From: Kangiella sp. | Lineage (GTDB): Bacteria > Pseudomonadota > Gammaproteobacteria > Enterobacterales > Kangiellaceae | DNA length: 64,000 nt | Direction: 5' to 3' | Assembly (NCBI RefSeq): GCF_014762745.1 | Contig: NZ_JABURJ010000015.1 | Coordinates: 21,303 to 85,302, forward strand | In this document: piece after piece, positions 10,368 through 59,714 of the stretch | How positions within the stretch are numbered: position 1 is the stretch's first letter | Layout of the letters: each line of letters starts with the position of its first letter | Notes under the pieces: generated by a model | Database searches by the model: none | What the model was told of the DNA's origin: nothing | What the model saw: only the letters and a program-made list of their open reading frames with translations | Program-made: the position numbers and the translations under genes

Positions 10368-10378
10368 ATCATTCGGGT

Positions 10379-10390
10379 ACGCTACCGCCC
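10379..10390 (-). promoter_or_regulatory. ops element (RfaH loading site, JUMPstart)
   Basis: Minus strand GGGCGGTAGCGT, matching the ops consensus GGCGGTAGnnT, between rfaH and the first polysaccharide-operon gene. Confidence 0.85.
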
Positions 10391-10534
10391 GTGGGTTTTG
10401 GTTCCCAAAGCACCATAGCAGCCAGCCCATCTGTTTGTTTTTTGTCCGCTTTTTTTACAAATTCTCAAATCGCGCGCTATTATAGTCAAATAGCTCACAA
10501 TTGTAACCGCAAGATTTAATTAATTTCCGTCCAT

Positions 10535-15902: not shown

Positions 15903-15978
15903 TCCCCCTTAGTTCAGTTGGTAGAACGGTGGACTGTTAATCCATATGTCGCTGGTTCAAGTCCAGCAGGGGGAGCCA
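15903..15978 (+). tRNA. tRNA-Asn (GTT)
   Basis: Acceptor stem TCCCCCT/AGGGGGA, anticodon arm GTGGA-CTGTTAA-TCCAT, GGTTCAAGTCC T-loop, encoded CCA. Confidence 0.97.
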
Positions 15979-18518: not shown

Positions 18519-18722
18519 TGTAATAACCGTAAAATATGAATCACGACTGTTAAGCCGTATTTAAAAACAAGCAGGAAATACTCGCAGCCAGGGGCGAGCC
18601 AATTGATAACTAGAGGTGTTATCTAAGGGAATAAGTGTGCGCTATGGCGGACTAATGAGCATTAAAACTCGGTTCTGGCTAAAAGGAGCGCGGAGTTTAC
18701 CAGCGAGGATAGTCAATTACAA
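18519..18722 (-). promoter_or_regulatory. sulP promoter and long 5' leader, possible cis-regulatory RNA (sul1-like)
   Basis: TTGTAA-17bp-TAAACT (18722-18694) gives a ~170-nt leader with AAACTC/GAGTTT complementarity. The family assignment is unverified. Confidence 0.4.
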
Positions 18723-18775
18723 ATTAACTTGATTGCCTCAGGAGCTAAGATTAGTAATGTCGGTAGCCGCTTGGC

Positions 18776-18858
18776 TGGGTCTCCCCCTTCGGGGATTTCC
18801 GACCTACGGAGTGAAGCATGAGCAATTGTTGGGATTCACTCTGTTCATCCCCACCTAC
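18776..18858 (-). repeat. Two GTAG-type REP-like elements
   Basis: GTAGGTCGGAAATCCCC-GAA-GGGGG (18807-18776) and GTAGGTGGGGATGAACAGAGTGAATCCCAAC (18858-18828). The second is 24/31 identical to 5314-5344. Confidence 0.6.
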
Positions 18859-18927
18859 ATCCACCCAAAGTACTTTGGCCTGCTACAGGCATGATCGTCC
18901 ACTCTAAAGTGGCTAAATATTTTGGGC

Positions 18928-19100
18928 AAAAAAAAAGCCGAGAACGAATCTCGGCCAAATCCCACCATATAGCTGAAGGAAAACTGATTAGGGGTATGCC
19001 CTATTTCTGAAATGGAAACTTTTGCTTCAATACGATTCAATACTTTATTTGTCTTCCACTCTGTGATACAAATAGCTATCGAATGCATTTCAGAACTTGG
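18928..19100 (-). ncRNA. Candidate ~170-nt small RNA transcribed divergently from the XRE regulator
   Basis: Promoter TTGATT-17-TATTAT (19134-19106) and terminator GCCGAGA-TTCGT-TCTCGGC-T9 (18954-18928). No ORF with an RBS fits between them. Confidence 0.5.
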
Positions 19101-19105
19101 TTTAA

Positions 19106-19134
19106 ATAATAATGCAAATATGCATACAAATCAA
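19106..19134 (-). promoter_or_regulatory. sigma70 promoter with an ATGCA-N4-TGCAT operator-like palindrome in its spacer
   Basis: -35 at 19134-19129, -10 at 19111-19106, inverted repeat 19112-19125, extra TGCAT half-sites at 19083 and 19143. Confidence 0.55.
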
Positions 19135-19165
19135 ACCGAATTTGCATCTTTTTTAGGAAATCTGA

Positions 19166-19555
19166 ATGAGCGAAATAATTGATCAACTAAAACAGCTTAT
19201 GCAAAGCCTTGGAGAAACGGATTATTCCATGCAGCATAAGGCTCACATCAGCCAATCGACCATTTATCGTATTTTAGAGGGGAAAACATCTGATCCAGGT
19301 GTTCATAAAATCGATGGTTTGGCTAGAGCGCTTGGATATAGGCTGGCTCTGGTTCCAATGAGCGAATACTATACTCAGGTAGATTATGGTGCAGAGGTTG
19401 ACACACTTGGCAAAATCATCGCCTTAGTAGAGTCACTATCAACAACTCGCGGTATTAACCTTACTCCTGAAGAGAAAGCAGAATTAATCCTCCAAAACTA
19501 TCGTGCTAATAGCAGTAAAGAAGAACTTGGGGTTAGAATCGCCAATTTGAAGTAG
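19166..19555 (+). CDS. XRE/cI-like helix-turn-helix transcriptional regulator
   Basis: ISQSTIYRILEGKTSDPGVHKIDGLARALG HTH_3 pattern, C-terminal LTPEEKAELI helix, AGGA RBS. Confidence 0.85.
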   Translation: MSEIIDQLKQLMQSLGETDYSMQHKAHISQSTIYRILEGKTSDPGVHKIDGLARALGYRLALVPMSEYYTQVDYGAEVDTLGKIIALVESLSTTRGINLTPEEKAELILQNYRANSSKEELGVRIANLK

Positions 19556-19605: not shown

Positions 19606-19632
19606 AAAGGCCTGCAATTGCAGGCCTTTTTT
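19606..19632. terminator. Bidirectional intrinsic terminator between convergent genes
   Basis: AAAGGCCTGC-AATT-GCAGGCCTTT followed by TTT. Confidence 0.8.
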
Positions 19633-19654: not shown

Positions 19655-20041
19655 TTAAGTTCTAGTGAACTCTGTTGGCGCTTTAGTGCTTTGTAGCTGA
19701 ATAGGCTTTAAGAAACCACGTGATTGAATAATACGTCGATTATTGGTTTCAAACTCCTGTAGCTTTTGGTTCCACAACAGAATCTCACGCAACTTATCTT
19801 TCTCAGGTAAGTTGCTAGACTCAATCTGTGAATATTCCTGGAGCAAACGCAAACCAATCATATCAGCTCGTTGGAAAGCTGATAGATCTATAACGTTGCC
19901 ATTAGACTCATATTCGCTATCTAGCGAATACTCATCATAAGGAACGTCGATTCGTCCGCGGTAAGCTTTCAGGATTAGCCAAAACAGCGCTGCTGCGAAC
20001 GCTGCTAACACTAAACCGTAGGCCAAAAATAGTAATGCCAT
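19655..20041 (-). CDS. Hypothetical single-pass membrane protein
   Basis: N-terminal TM (LLFLAYGLVLAAFAAALFWLIL) then KAYRGR, AGGAAG upstream, ends just before the terminator; overlaps the upstream ORF by 107 nt. Confidence 0.6.
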   Translation of the reverse strand: MALLFLAYGLVLAAFAAALFWLILKAYRGRIDVPYDEYSLDSEYESNGNVIDLSAFQRADMIGLRLLQEYSQIESSNLPEKDKLREILLWNQKLQEFETNNRRIIQSRGFLKPIQLQSTKAPTEFTRT

Positions 20042-20531
20042 TGATTTTTCTTCCTAATGTTACCACCAGCTGTTTAGCCACTGGTGTTAATAAAGCTAAT
20101 ATGATGCAGATGTTTACGGCATTCAGCGTATAGCTTTGTATGCCTTTTATTATTTCGAAATCTGTATAGTGTCTTTCTATAAAACGGATTAAGTGAAATC
20201 CAATTGCAAGAATAGTTAGCACACTTACTGCAAACTCTTCTTTTAAAACTCTACCAGTGGTCACTGCTCTATAAGCCACATAGAGTAGTATCAATATATC
20301 TGTGACCATCCACGATATATACCATATAAACTTTGCTTCTGTATGATTCCAAAGAATTGGAGTAATAATCCAATTTATAAACTGAATTACAACAATTGCC
20401 ATACAAAACTGAACAAGCCTTGAGTTCTTTGTAAATGCCAAATGCAAAATTAAACACCCCACAAGCGATAAAGTAAAAATATCGCTCGTGAGGTCAAGTA
20501 AGTTATACTGATTTACAAAGTTTTGAATCAA
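19935..20531 (-). CDS. Hypothetical polytopic membrane protein (~5 TM)
   Basis: Five hydrophobic segments separated by short charged loops; TTG start overlaps the stop of the upstream peptide ORF (TTGA). Confidence 0.75.
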   Translation of the reverse strand: MIQNFVNQYNLLDLTSDIFTLSLVGCLILHLAFTKNSRLVQFCMAIVVIQFINWIITPILWNHTEAKFIWYISWMVTDILILLYVAYRAVTTGRVLKEEFAVSVLTILAIGFHLIRFIERHYTDFEIIKGIQSYTLNAVNICIILALLTPVAKQLVVTLGRKINGITIFGLRFSVSSVRSSAVLANPESLPRTNRRSL

Positions 20532-20683
20532 TTCTCTTTCTCTTTATTTGGGTTATCACCTGGGTCACCACCACCACCACCAGTGAAAACATGCACTATT
20601 GGTGTTTCTTCAAACGCAGGCGCTTCAAAATTTTGTGGTTCTGAGATAGATAAATAGCAGATCATAGCGATAGTTTCAAACAT
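20528..20683 (-). CDS. Unannotated 51-aa peptide with a Gly5 tract
   Basis: MFETIAMICYLSISEPQNFEAPAFEETPIVHVFTGGGGGDPGDNPNKEKEN; AAGAGG RBS 8 nt upstream; stop overlaps the next start. Confidence 0.7.
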   Translation of the reverse strand: MFETIAMICYLSISEPQNFEAPAFEETPIVHVFTGGGGGDPGDNPNKEKEN

Positions 20684-20907
20684 AATATTTTCCTCTTAAG
20701 TAGATGATTTAGTAAAAAAAAGCCTATAGAATTTACTCACATAGCATTTAGAAAAACAAATTGCACGGGGAACGTTAACTAACTCATTGCTTTTAAAAGA
20801 ATTTCCTAACAGCTCTCATTTTTGCAATCCATTTACTCTGTACAAATTTTAGCCACAGTTGATTATTAAAAGTGTGAACTAAATTTTACATTTGATAAAA
20901 ATATTTT

Positions 20908-21525
20908 ATGAGTCGATTTCTTAAAAAATACGCATTCGCATTACTCTTAAGTCATATTTGCATTATTAGCTACCTACTTTTGCCTCAATCTAACTTATGG
21001 ATGGCTTATGATCGACCCCTTGTCGAAAATGGACAGTGGTGGCGCTTTATTACAGCAAACCTGGTTCACCTTGGTGGCTGGCATACCATTATGAACTTAG
21101 CCAGTCTTTGGCTGATTAGCTTTATCTTTCAGCCACTGTTAAAAATGTCTCACTGGATTGGTTGGGTGCTACTGCTTTACTTTGTTAACATCTTGGCGAT
21201 GCATCTATGGACCCCACATATTATTCACTACGTTGGTATGTCCGGGGCTCTATACGGATTGATTGCGGCATGTGCGACTGCAGAGCTAAGACTTGGTGTA
21301 AAAATCAGTGGTGTACTGCTGATTATCGTCGGCATAAAAATCTTTTTGCCACAAATTGTTGGTGTTGAATCTGAATATGATGAATTTTTAGGTGGGGCAG
21401 TGGTTGAAGAGTCTCATATTATAGGCTTTATTCAGGGGATCATTCTCGGTCTCTTGTGGCCTAAGCAATTACTGAACGGGCCAGTGCTTCAGTCAATCCT
21501 CAAATCAAACAAGTCTAAAGAATAA
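20908..21525 (+). CDS. Rhombosortase (rhomboid protease, GlyGly-CTERM processing)
   Basis: GQWWRFITANLVH....H..MN, YVGMSGALYG catalytic Ser, late H (ESHIIG). Confidence 0.75.
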   Translation: MSRFLKKYAFALLLSHICIISYLLLPQSNLWMAYDRPLVENGQWWRFITANLVHLGGWHTIMNLASLWLISFIFQPLLKMSHWIGWVLLLYFVNILAMHLWTPHIIHYVGMSGALYGLIAACATAELRLGVKISGVLLIIVGIKIFLPQIVGVESEYDEFLGGAVVEESHIIGFIQGIILGLLWPKQLLNGPVLQSILKSNKSKE

Positions 21526-21596: not shown

Positions 21597-21908
21597 TTAG
21601 AGCTTAATTTTGCTTTTGTTCTTATCGACCGTTTTCTGGCCAATGCCTTTCACTGCTGTCAGCTCATTGGCCGATTTGAATGGACCAAACTTCTTCCGGT
21701 AATCGATAATGGCCTCAGCCTTCTTTTGACCTACACCAGTTAATACTTTTGAAAGCTCTTTGGCATCGGCAGTATTAATATTGACTGTTGAGACTTGCTC
21801 AGAGGCTCCCTTGCCATTGGCAGCAGCCAAACCGCCTGGTTCCTTGGCGGCTAATGTTTGTGAGCTTACAGCTAATAATAGTGAAAGAATTAAAGCGAGT
21901 TTTTTCAT
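21597..21908 (-). CDS. comEA: ComEA helix-hairpin-helix DNA-binding protein
   Basis: Signal peptide, VNINTADAKEL, GVGQKKAEAII, VKGIG. Confidence 0.9.
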   Translation of the reverse strand: MKKLALILSLLLAVSSQTLAAKEPGGLAAANGKGASEQVSTVNINTADAKELSKVLTGVGQKKAEAIIDYRKKFGPFKSANELTAVKGIGQKTVDKNKSKIKL

Positions 21909-59342: not shown

Positions 59343-59468
59343 CCTAAGTTATATAGAAAATTAGCTTTATGCCATTTAGTTAATTCAAAGCTATGAACAT
59401 ATACTTTTAAGAGCAGATAGCACCAATTACCCCCTTATATTGAGCTAAGGCACGTACAAAATATAGCA

Positions 59469-59714
59469 ATCAAAATCGTGGATGATTTTGATAAGAATTT
59501 TCAGCACAGGGATGTGATGTAAATTCTGGTGCGTTAAGTATTTTGGGAGTGACGCAGGTAGTCACGCAAAGCGTGACCTCAATATCGGGGTGTCGTTTCT
59601 TTTGGTCCCTTTTCTTTGGACAAGCAAAGAAAAGGGACTCGCTGAGTAGCGAAACAAAAACCATAGGAATGGACAAGCGAAAAGATCATGGATTCCCGCC
59701 TCCGCGGGAATGAC
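59469..59714. repeat. Second intergenic mosaic of palindromes, including a dRS3-like element
   Basis: ATCAAAATC-N6-GATTTTGAT (59469), GTAG-TCACGC-AAA-GCGTGA (59558), 14-bp stem GTCCCTTTTCTTTG/CAAAGAAAAGGGAC (59605-59638), ATTCCC-N8-GGGAAT (59692-59711). Confidence 0.7.

What the first reader, a model, noticed from the sequence alone, without database searches (positions are those of the whole stretch)
20528..20683. Unannotated 51-aa micro-ORF with hydrophobic N-terminus, Gly5 tract and DPGDNP tail
Seen: below the ORF-track cut-off but with a strong RBS (AAGAGG), an ATG start and a TTGA overlap with the next gene. The sequence has three parts: a hydrophobic N-terminal segment, an acidic/Pro middle, and TGGGGGDPGDNPNKEKEN. 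Established: double-Gly motifs are cleavage sites in many bacteriocin and pheromone precursors. Inference: a processed signal or RiPP-like precursor, or a translational leader that controls the membrane gene.
Basis: partly seen in the sequence, partly recalled or inferred. Interest (0 to 1): 0.68.

Follow-up and report, generated by a model that had tools for sequence, protein, structure and literature searches.

The report
Small Gly-motif protein of phage-type membrane module
The 51-codon ORF is a real, conserved small-protein gene in a Kangiella bacterium: it is the first gene of an undescribed three-gene membrane module that also occurs in prophages and, as a passenger, on blaPER-1 resistance plasmids, and its function is still unknown.

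Summary
The ORF lies on the minus strand, 20683..20528. It has an AAGAGG ribosome-binding site 8 nt before the ATG and a TTGA stop/start overlap with a 5-TM gene.

It is a genuine gene. All 36 copies retrieved from Kangiella genomes and metagenomes are intact, every copy inspected has an RBS, and antisense frames are broken. Median dN/dS is 0.30, falling to 0.17 at the N-terminus and 0.20 at the Gly motif, with a near-neutral linker.

It heads an operon of small protein, 5-TM protein and single-pass membrane protein, with conserved upstream DNA boxes and an adjacent XRE regulator. Kangiella species carry 1-3 tandem cassettes. In K. shandongensis one peptide holds about 8 tandem motif units.

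Distant 5-TM homologues (phrog_31674, function unknown) occur in P2-like and lambdoid prophages, an AlpA island and 60 plasmids beside blaPER-1. Every homologue locus inspected has an upstream small ORF, and all but two of these carry a G-x-x-[GW]-G-x-[DE]-P motif (the other two carry near variants).

Tests for a double-glycine leader, GlyGly-CTERM and an arrest peptide failed. My best reading, which is an inference, is a disordered acidic partner that docks through the Gly motif onto the co-translated membrane proteins of a prophage-derived accessory module. A processed multi-copy peptide remains possible.

The parts
20528..20683 (-). Micro-ORF, 51 aa, first cistron of the operon
   Evidence: Intact in all 36 copies of relatives. 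dN/dS 0.30.
20692..20697 (-). Shine-Dalgarno AAGAGG, 8 nt before the ATG
   Evidence: GGAG/GAGG at the same distance in all 18 distinct copies.
20645..20683 (-). Codons 1-13, MFE[TS]IAMICYLS[IM]: N-terminal hydrophobic helix, invariant across Kangiella
   Evidence: The only changes are synonymous or T/S. AF2 predicts a helix at residues 2-12. dN/dS 0.17, with dS depressed to 0.42.
20549..20587 (-). Codons 33-45, FTGGGGGDPGDNP: the family signature motif [YF]-T-G-x-x-G-G-[DE]-P-x-x-x-P
   Evidence: dN/dS 0.20, dS 1.5. Related motif in distant homologues.
19935..20531 (-). 5-TM membrane protein gene, 198 aa, TTG start overlapping the micro-ORF stop
   Evidence: AF2 shows five helices, pLDDT 73. 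Five hydropathy peaks. Distant homologues match phrog_31674.
19655..20041 (-). Single-pass (N-terminal TM) protein gene, 128 aa; overlaps the 5-TM gene by 107 nt out of frame
   Evidence: A bitopic ORF follows the 5-TM gene in every homologue locus.
19606..19629 (-). GC-rich perfect 12+12 hairpin directly after the operon, shared with the convergent HTH gene. The terminator scan lists it on both strands; the T-run is on the + strand only.
19166..19555 (+). Convergent XRE-family HTH gene (129 aa), probable regulator of the module
   Evidence: HTH_3 at E 1.5e-5. An XRE-type gene flanks the triad in all Kangiella loci and in 6 of 7 distant loci.
20875..20893 (-). Conserved box AAATGTAAAATTTAGTTCA (near-palindrome ATGTAAA-A-TTTACAT), about 210 nt upstream of the ATG; candidate operator overlapping the -35
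   Evidence: Found at -207..-210 in 26 of the 27 distinct cassette upstream regions examined, paralogues included. Unique in the window. In most cassettes TTTAC[AT]-17-TATATT.
20780..20794 (-). Second conserved box AAAAGCAATGAGTTA, in the leader/promoter region
20908..21525 (+). Divergent neighbour: rhombosortase gene (adjacent; functional link not shown)
   Evidence: TIGR03902, 137 bits against a cut-off of 84. Adjacent to the cassette array in all Kangiella loci whose flank reaches that far but in no distant homologue locus.

Best explanation
SHOWN. The ORF is a translated-type, purifying-selected small-protein gene. It is cistron 1 of a three-cistron operon: small protein, then a 5-TM protein, then an N-terminally anchored single-pass protein. 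The operon has its own conserved upstream boxes, an operon-end hairpin and an adjacent XRE-family regulator. The operon belongs to an undescribed module. In Kangiella the module is chromosomal and present in 1-3 tandem, diverged cassettes. Elsewhere it sits in P2-like and lambdoid prophages beside the immunity region, in an AlpA island, and as a passenger in the ISCR1-blaPER-1 region of resistance plasmids. The only feature shared by the small proteins of all branches is a near-C-terminal Gly-rich/acidic/Pro motif (G-x-x-[GW]-G-x-[DE]-P), present once, twice or about eight times. INFERRED. The Kangiella protein has no signal peptide and no TM segment. It is acidic (net -7) and largely disordered, with an 11-residue hydrophobic N-terminal helix. 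I propose that it stays at the cytoplasmic face of the membrane. The helix would tether it, and the Gly motif would dock onto the co-translated 5-TM/bitopic pair. Stop/start overlaps would enforce matched synthesis. In this way it would gate or neutralise the membrane pair, like the small labile partner in a three-component (regulator / small antidote / membrane effector) prophage accessory module of the exclusion, abortive-infection or addiction type, with XRE repressing the promoter through the palindromic box. Confidence by layer: real gene 0.95; member of this conserved module 0.9; docking/antidote mechanism about 0.3.
For: Real gene. Operon anatomy and coupling. Conserved promoter/operator boxes upstream of 26 of the 27 distinct cassette upstream regions examined. 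Metatranscriptome contigs cover the micro-ORF and about 80-135 nt of leader. Module beyond Kangiella, with small ORF + 5-TM + bitopic + XRE. Motif specificity: 7 of 495 background ORFs match the regex, and six or all seven of those are the small ORFs themselves. Motif repeated 2x (L017, L021) and 7.9x (L016). No TM or signal, disordered, acidic. Location in prophage accessory slots next to repressor genes, with UmuDC and a KAP NTPase nearby.
Against: There is no experimental or structural evidence of binding, and AlphaFold-Multimer could not be run. No hit in PADLOC for any component. No toxicity data. The short group-3 small proteins are basic rather than acidic, so 'acidic antidote' is not universal. 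Genus-wide retention at one chromosomal site in Kangiella is unusual for a purely selfish or defence cassette. The 8-unit repeat variant is explained at least as naturally by a multi-copy processed peptide. The sense strand of the RNA contigs is unknown, and DNA carry-over is possible.
Confidence: 0.4

Rival explanations
1. Precursor of an exported, processed peptide (signal or bacteriocin-like, RiPP-like). The invariant N-terminus acts as a leader, the Gly-motif unit is the product, and the 5-TM protein acts as a novel processing/export or immunity protein.
For: Leader-like invariant N-terminus plus a near-neutral linker (dN/dS 0.86) plus a conserved unit. A K. shandongensis paralogue with 7.9 tandem units resembles multi-core precursors, and Shewanella-type proteins carry 2 units. 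Tandem diverged cassettes pairing a peptide with a membrane protein resemble bacteriocin/immunity arrays.
Against: No signal peptide or TM, and the Shewanella-type members are wholly hydrophilic. No recognisable modifying enzyme, protease or exporter nearby. The 5-TM fold matches no known enzyme. The would-be product is highly acidic and disordered, unlike membrane-active bacteriocins.
Confidence: 0.2
2. Anti-repressor smORF working by the logic of prophage TF-smORF modules: the XRE protein controls the small ORF, whose product inactivates a repressor (the phage cI, or the adjacent XRE protein itself).
For: In the prophage relatives an HTH gene is divergently transcribed from the small ORF, the arrangement described by Silpe et al. 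2023 (PMC10432266). Small, domain-less, sequence-diverse proteins are typical of that class.
Against: The Kangiella loci have no prophage and the HTH gene is convergent. The two membrane proteins are constant companions, which the TF-smORF model does not need. The plasmid copy has lost the HTH gene yet keeps the triad.
Confidence: 0.12
3. Regulatory leader or arrest peptide (SecM/MifM-like) whose translation controls expression of the 5-TM gene.
For: It lies directly upstream with a stop/start overlap. The Gly/Pro/acidic run could slow ribosomes (established knowledge on D-P/E-P bonds; a lead only).
Against: No structure sequesters the downstream start (z = +0.57). Some cassettes have a 160-nt spacer. 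The motif is repeated up to 8x. There is no TM or signal to sense translocation. No conserved RNA structure.
Confidence: 0.08
4. Substrate or cofactor of the neighbouring rhombosortase, i.e. a Gly-Gly sorting signal in another guise.
For: It is divergently adjacent to a bona fide rhombosortase gene in every Kangiella locus whose flank reaches that far, and it has a Gly run.
Against: The tripartite GlyGly-CTERM is absent: no hydrophobic helix or basic cluster follows the Gly run, and there is no TIGR03501 hit at E<=0.1. Distant module members have no rhombosortase nearby. In genomes with several targets (K. koreensis has 5), targets are not next to the enzyme (PMC3237569).
Confidence: 0.04

Closest known systems
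Prophage TF-smORF induction modules (Silpe et al. 2023, PMC10432266)
   Same: A small, domain-less protein gene paired with an XRE-type regulator in temperate-phage genomes. It is divergent from the HTH gene in the prophage relatives. Sequences are highly diverse but the architecture is constant.
   Different: Two membrane proteins are always co-encoded and translationally coupled. The Kangiella copies lie outside any prophage, with a convergent HTH gene. Anti-repressor activity is untested.
Three-component toxin-antitoxin / addiction cassettes (omega-epsilon-zeta, paaR-paaA-parE; own knowledge)
   Same: A separate regulator, a small acidic disordered protein encoded first, overlapping stop/start with the downstream effector genes, and residence in prophages, islands and plasmids with tandem chromosomal copies.
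   Different: The effectors here would be a 5-TM and a bitopic membrane protein with no known toxin fold. No toxicity has been shown, and there are no matches in PADLOC or NCBIfam TA models.
Prophage exclusion membrane proteins beside the repressor (lambda RexB, P22 SieA/SieB; own knowledge)
   Same: Small multi-TM proteins encoded in the accessory slot next to the immunity genes of temperate phages.
   Different: No sequence or fold similarity was found. Those systems have no Gly-motif small protein.
Double-glycine leader peptides of class II bacteriocins and competence pheromones
   Same: A small ribosomal peptide with a Gly-Gly element, encoded next to a membrane protein.
   Different: The Gly motif is near the C-terminus rather than at the end of a 15-30-residue leader. 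No C39-ABC exporter is nearby, and the tail is acidic and only 12 residues long.
GlyGly-CTERM / rhombosortase sorting (Haft & Varghese 2011, PMC3237569)
   Same: A Gly-rich element, with a rhombosortase gene next door.
   Different: No TM helix and no basic cluster follow the Gly run. There is no signal peptide, and adjacency is confined to Kangiella.
Multi-core peptide precursors (e.g. cyanobactin-type RiPPs, fungal alpha-factor; own knowledge)
   Same: One paralogue (L016 2584..3339) carries about 8 near-identical 28-residue units behind a conserved N-terminus.
   Different: No recognisable protease or modifying enzyme. Most members have a single unit.

Membership tests
Double-glycine-leader bacteriocin/pheromone precursor | N-terminal leader of about 15-30 residues ending in GG/GA/GS, followed by the mature peptide | tested here: not met
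   The Gly motif is at residues 35-39 of 51 and only DPGDNPNKEKEN follows it.
Double-glycine-leader bacteriocin/pheromone precursor | Dedicated C39-peptidase ABC exporter (PCAT) encoded nearby | tested here: not met
   Neighbours within about 4 kb are IhfB, LapA/B, PyrF, ComEA, rhombosortase, HTH, SulP and Usp. The rest of the window was not scanned by Pfam.
GlyGly-CTERM rhombosortase substrate | C-terminal tripartite signal: Gly/Ser motif, hydrophobic helix, basic cluster | tested here: not met
   No TIGR03501 hit at E<=0.1. The tail is acidic, and the best 19-residue hydropathy window (0.62) is at the N-terminus.
GlyGly-CTERM rhombosortase substrate | Rhombosortase present in the genome | tested here: met
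   TIGR03902, 137 bits against a cut-off of 84, adjacent gene.
Regulatory arrest/leader peptide (SecM, MifM, VemP type) | Downstream start/SD sequestered in a structure that is opened by ribosome stalling | tested here: not met
   The junction folds no better than shuffles (z = +0.57). The stop and start overlap, while other cassettes have a 160-nt spacer.
Regulatory arrest/leader peptide (SecM, MifM, VemP type) | N-terminal signal or TM segment that couples arrest release to translocation | tested here: not met
   Only a 12-residue hydrophobic patch. Shewanella-type members are wholly hydrophilic.
Regulatory arrest/leader peptide (SecM, MifM, VemP type) | Ribosome stalling at the conserved C-terminal motif | not testable with these tools
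   Needs toeprinting or Ribo-seq.
RiPP precursor | Co-encoded modifying enzyme, RRE or leader protease | tested here: not met
   No Pfam, NCBIfam or PADLOC family for the 5-TM and bitopic proteins. No fold match. A novel enzyme cannot be excluded.
RiPP precursor | Conserved leader with one or more core units | tested here: inconclusive
   The N-terminus is invariant and an 8-unit variant exists, but the 'core' is the conserved part and the N-terminus is not shared outside Kangiella.
Prophage TF-smORF module | Transcription-factor gene divergent from a small ORF inside a temperate phage | tested here: inconclusive
   Met in L017, L019, L021 and L023. Not met in the window, where the HTH gene is convergent and there is no prophage.
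Prophage TF-smORF module | smORF product inactivates the phage repressor | not testable with these tools
   Needs reporter or EMSA assays.
phrog_31674 (5-TM partner family, function unknown) | HMM match of the 5-TM protein | tested here: inconclusive
   The window protein itself does not hit it. Its HMMER-detected relatives do: P0046 at 6e-15, P0048 at 2e-8, P0043 at 5e-7.

The most novel reading that the evidence does not exclude
The module is a new ribosomal-peptide system of Gram-negative temperate phages, domesticated and amplified in Kangiella. In this reading the Gly-motif units (1, 2 or 8 per precursor) are released by the 5-TM protein acting as a new kind of intramembrane processing/export enzyme. 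The released units would serve as an extracellular or periplasmic signal sensed through the bitopic protein and the XRE regulator. That would be a Gram-negative counterpart of peptide-based phage/cell communication.
Probability: 0.1. Interest if true: 0.85.

Novelty: new variant of a known kind. Interest (0 to 1): 0.55.

Why it matters
The finding turns a below-threshold ORF into the entry point to a conserved, unnamed module: a Gly-motif small protein, a 5-TM protein, a bitopic protein and an XRE regulator. None of its parts has a Pfam, NCBIfam or PADLOC family. The module is spread across marine Gammaproteobacteria, P2-like and lambdoid prophages, and at least 60 clinically relevant plasmids, where it travels with blaPER-1 as part of the 'four orfs of unknown function'. 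If it is an exclusion, addiction or signalling module it would add a new small-protein-controlled membrane system to phage-host biology. It might also help explain why this passenger DNA persists on resistance plasmids. Finally, it shows that standard callers miss the 5-TM gene while calling the micro-ORF.

Tried and rejected
1. Chance ORF or antisense ORF: rejected. The sense frame is open in 36 of 36 copies, while the antisense frames are broken by stops. Third-position variability alone does not discriminate here, because the 44-aa antisense ORF shares its wobble positions with the sense frame.

2. Pfam, NCBIfam, PHROGs and PADLOC searches on the micro-ORF, 5-TM and bitopic proteins: no family.

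3. Foldseek against the PDB with the 5-TM model: best E 0.76. PDB sequence-profile searches with A3, A4, A5 and A8: nothing significant.

4. The weak FlgM-like hit of the Shewanella-type small proteins (E 0.01-0.02, far below cut-off) was not reproduced against the PDB. I treat it as compositional.

5. Three viral-contig scans and four GenBank-phage tblastn searches: no hits.

6. The metagenome scan with the peptide profile returned only Kangiella-type loci, so the MFE[ST]IAMICYLS N-terminus is genus-specific.

7. Conserved RNA structure in the 5' leader: none (-0.36 kcal/mol). Junction hairpin: none. Attenuator in the 160-nt spacer: none found.

9. Pairwise BLASTP of the XRE proteins from different branches gave no alignment. 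They share only the HTH_3/HTH_31 class, so 'XRE adjacent' is a class-level association, not an orthology-level one.

10. Rhomboid-recognition-motif reading of the N-terminus: considered by eye and dropped. There is no TM and no fitting P4/P1/P2' pattern.

Full report
1. OBSERVATION

The finding's coordinates hold a 51-codon ORF on the minus strand. The ATG is at 20683..20681 and the TGA stop at 20530..20528. The product is MFETIAMICYLSISEPQNFEAPAFEETPIVHVFTGGGGGDPGDNPNKEKEN. AAGAGG (20697..20692) lies 8 nt before the ATG. The stop overlaps the TTG start of a 198-aa ORF (20531..19935). That ORF overlaps, by 107 nt and out of frame, a 128-aa ORF (20041..19655). A perfect 12+12 GC-rich hairpin (19606..19629) follows.

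The divergent neighbour (20908..21525 +) is a rhombosortase: TIGR03902, 137 bits against a cut-off of 84. The convergent neighbour (19166..19555 +) is an XRE/HTH_3 protein. The wider context is ihfB-lapAB-pyrF-comEA on one side and SulP-Usp on the other. Protein hits place the window in the genus Kangiella.

2. IS IT A GENE?

Yes. A search of 5.8 billion proteins returned nine 51-52-aa proteins at 71-100% identity. One is annotated as a hypothetical protein in Kangiella sp. M94.

- Across genome loci L001-L016 and metagenome loci L025-L033 I found 36 copies (18 distinct nucleotide versions in the first set). All are intact.
- Every distinct copy has GGAG/GAGG 7-9 nt upstream.
- Median pairwise dN/dS is 0.30, and 0.05-0.2 among close orthologues.
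- By region, the N-terminal 16 codons give dN/dS 0.17 with depressed dS (0.42). The middle 17 codons give 0.86, which is nearly neutral. The motif plus tail give 0.20 at saturating dS of 1.5.
- The three paralogues within one genome (L016) differ in the N-terminal codons only by synonymous changes, so the invariance is not merely recent gene conversion.
- No antisense frame stays open across relatives.
- Metatranscriptome contigs from three runs cover the micro-ORF and about 80-135 nt of leader. This is weak evidence of expression: these are contigs, the strand is unknown, and DNA carry-over is possible.

3. ANATOMY OF THE PROTEIN

The invariant residues are M1-S12 (with T/S at position 4), P16, T34, G35, G38, G39, P41 and P45. 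The 'Gly5' run is therefore really T-G-x-x-G-G-[DE]-P-x-x-x-P.

The KEKEN codons (AAAGAGAAAGAGAAT) also form the purine-rich SD region of the next gene.

AlphaFold predicts only a helix at residues 2-12 and disorder elsewhere (pLDDT 61). The best 19-residue hydropathy window is 0.62, so there is no TM helix. Net charge is -7 and pI is 4.1.

4. THE OPERON AND ITS COPIES

The 198-aa partner has five hydropathy peaks and five AF2 helices (pLDDT 73). Its tail, residues 170-198, is disordered. This is the part encoded in the overlap, and it is absent from distant homologues. The 128-aa protein has one N-terminal TM followed by KAYRGR, so its C-terminal domain is predicted to be cytoplasmic.

The public collection's gene caller calls the micro-ORF and the 128-aa gene but leaves the 5-TM gene uncalled. 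The ORF is nevertheless intact and diverges by amino-acid substitutions in all relatives.

Kangiella species carry one cassette (the window clade), two (L012-L015) or three (K. shandongensis, L016). The array always sits between the rhombosortase gene and the XRE gene, and in L013, where I scanned, each cassette ends with its own terminator.

Nearly all cassettes, paralogues included, carry AAATGTAAAATTTA[CG][AT]TCA at -207..-210: 26 of the 27 distinct upstream regions examined matched, and the L016 cassette nearest the rhombosortase gene was the exception. In the window this box is at 20875..20893. The box is a near-palindrome that overlaps a TTTAC[AT]-17-TATATT promoter in most cassettes. 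All 14 aligned cassette leaders carry a second box, AAAAGCAAT[AG]AGTTA, at 20780..20794 in the window. No conserved RNA fold exists in the leader or at the peptide/5-TM junction.

In L016 the middle cassette's peptide is 251 aa long. It has the usual N-terminus followed by 7.9 tandem 84-nt repeats encoding FTGNGGGEPDDEPDETEKQKFRFAALES.

5. BEYOND KANGIELLA

A full HMMER scan of 1.84 billion representatives with the 5-TM profile found only 17 proteins. The distant ones are 116-189 aa long. Four of the six tested match phrog_31674, a phage family of unknown function, with P0046 at 6e-15.

Their contexts were as follows.

- Shewanella xiamenensis P2-like prophages (GPD, Ogr/Delta, primase), near UmuDC and a KAP NTPase (L017, L018, L021).
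- Lambdoid-like contigs with RecT/YqaJ or Rep_O, one from a virome (L019, L022, L023).
- A contig with AlpA (L020).
- L024, where the flanks are too short to judge.

In every case a small ORF lies 0-37 nt upstream and a bitopic ORF follows or overlaps the 5-TM gene. An HTH_3/HTH_31 gene is adjacent in 6 of 7 loci.

The small ORFs differ in length and charge, but all carry a Gly-rich/acidic element near the C-terminus:

- VYTGGGG[GV]DP (L020, L024)
- G[KN]GWG[ND]EP, twice (L017, L021)
- MPGNSGG[NY]D (L019, L022)
- MPGNSDGDD (L023)

A post-hoc regex, G-x-x-[GW]-G-x(0,1)-[DE], hits 5 of the 7 upstream ORFs. It hits 7 of 495 background ORFs in the same DNA, and six or all seven of those are the small ORFs themselves.

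tblastn then found the 5-TM gene on 60 plasmids (IncC and others; Providencia, Pseudomonas, Vibrio, Acinetobacter, Klebsiella). It lies between sul1 and abct-gst-blaPER-1. The full triad is present, and the small ORF there is WP_032495677.1, 76 aa, ending LGGGWGNEPPK. This region is described in the literature as 'ISCR1-blaPER-1-gts-abct-4 orfs of unknown function-3'CS' (PMC3934969). That the triad accounts for three of those four orfs is my inference.

The module is therefore a mobile, phage-associated unit. In Kangiella it is a domesticated, amplified version.

6. MECHANISM

Shown:

- The ORF is a selected small protein that is translationally coupled to two membrane proteins.
- It has its own promoter/operator boxes, and an XRE gene always lies nearby.
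- The Gly motif is the only pan-family feature, and it can be multiplied.

Inferred (about 0.3): the protein remains cytoplasmic or membrane-peripheral. It docks through the motif onto the 5-TM/bitopic pair and gates or neutralises them. This would be a regulator / small partner / membrane effector design, typical of prophage exclusion, abortive-infection or addiction cassettes, and it would fit the module's position in prophage accessory slots beside repressor genes.

Rivals:

- A processed multi-copy peptide (0.2). It is favoured by the 8-unit variant and the leader-like N-terminus, but it lacks any recognisable export or processing machinery, and some members are wholly hydrophilic.
- An anti-repressor smORF as in TF-smORF modules (0.12; PMC10432266).
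- A leader or arrest peptide (0.08).
- A rhombosortase substrate (0.04). The tripartite GlyGly-CTERM is absent, adjacency is confined to Kangiella, and Haft & Varghese report that in multi-target genomes, including K. koreensis with 5 targets, targets are not adjacent to the enzyme (PMC3237569).

7. COMPARISON AND NOVELTY

No component belongs to a described family in Pfam, NCBIfam or PADLOC. The only link is the 5-TM relatives' match to a PHROG of unknown function. The tested defining features of double-glycine leaders, GlyGly-CTERM and arrest-peptide regulation are not met, and for RiPP precursors the modifying-enzyme criterion is not met while the leader/core criterion is inconclusive.

The architecture resembles known kinds, namely small-protein-controlled prophage accessory modules and three-component TA logic, without homology to any of them. 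I therefore rate it a new variant of a known kind. There is a roughly 10% chance that it is a new peptide system.

8. VERDICT

Interest is 0.55: a real, conserved, widely disseminated but functionally unassigned small-protein/membrane module that is directly testable with standard genetics.

Noticed in passing
window 19935..20041 (-): There is a 107-nt out-of-frame overlap between the 3' end of the 5-TM gene and the 5' end of the bitopic gene. It is nearly invariant at nucleotide level in all Kangiella cassettes. The 5-TM tail it encodes is AF2-disordered and absent from distant homologues, where the overlaps are 10-62 nt. It is unclear which frame is under selection.
   Followed up: partly
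L016 2584..3339 (K. shandongensis): This paralogue of the micro-ORF is expanded to 251 aa by 7.9 tandem 84-nt repeats at 98% identity. Each repeat encodes the Gly motif plus a spacer (FTGNGGGEPDDEPDETEKQKFRFAALES).
   Followed up: partly
L034 3760..4818 (pVVS1-per1) and 59 other plasmids: The whole triad (76-aa small ORF ending GGGWGNEPPK, 164-aa 5-TM gene unannotated in the PLSDB table, bitopic ORF) rides between sul1 and abct-gst-blaPER-1 in complex class 1 integron regions of IncC and other plasmids.
   Followed up: partly
L001-L006, e.g. L002 4157..4642: The public collection's gene caller leaves the 5-TM gene uncalled (a 486-nt gap) in Kangiella contigs, while it calls the 51-aa ORF. This is an annotation gap caused by TTG/GTG starts and the gene overlap.
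   Followed up: yes
window 20908..21525 (+) and 21597..21908 (-): A rhombosortase gene (TIGR03902) lies back-to-back with a ComEA-type HHH gene. The cassette's conserved box at 20875..20893 ends only 15 nt from the rhombosortase start codon, so the two divergent promoters must share this 224-nt region.
   Followed up: no
window 59442..59560 (+); 10378..10415 (-); 15903..15978 (+): Rfam hits just above gathering score: TwoAYGGAY RNA (46 against 43 bits) and JUMPstart (36 against 35 bits). There is also one tRNA-Asn(GTT).
   Followed up: no
window 18520..19165: About 650 nt without a long ORF lie between SulP and the XRE gene. Several other Kangiella species have a 257-293-aa lipoprotein-like gene beyond the XRE gene (L012 5765..6538, L013 7340..8221, L016 6556..7332), which appears to be absent from the window clade.
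   Followed up: no
L017 5751..5984; L021 2602..2838; L034 3760..3990: The Shewanella/plasmid-type small proteins share the block DTVTLS-x-EA-x-A and give sub-threshold hits to the N-terminal half of the FlgM model (E 0.01-0.02, 15-16 bits against a cut-off of 40.75). This was not reproduced against the PDB and is probably compositional.
   Followed up: partly
L012-L016, second-type cassettes (e.g. L013 5440..5600): In one cassette subtype (peptide motif TGNGGGEP, 5-TM proteins starting MFNFVLELNLWQ...) a spacer of about 95-160 nt separates the micro-ORF from the 5-TM gene, instead of a stop/start overlap. The spacer has no terminator-like hairpin, and its role is unknown.
   Followed up: partly
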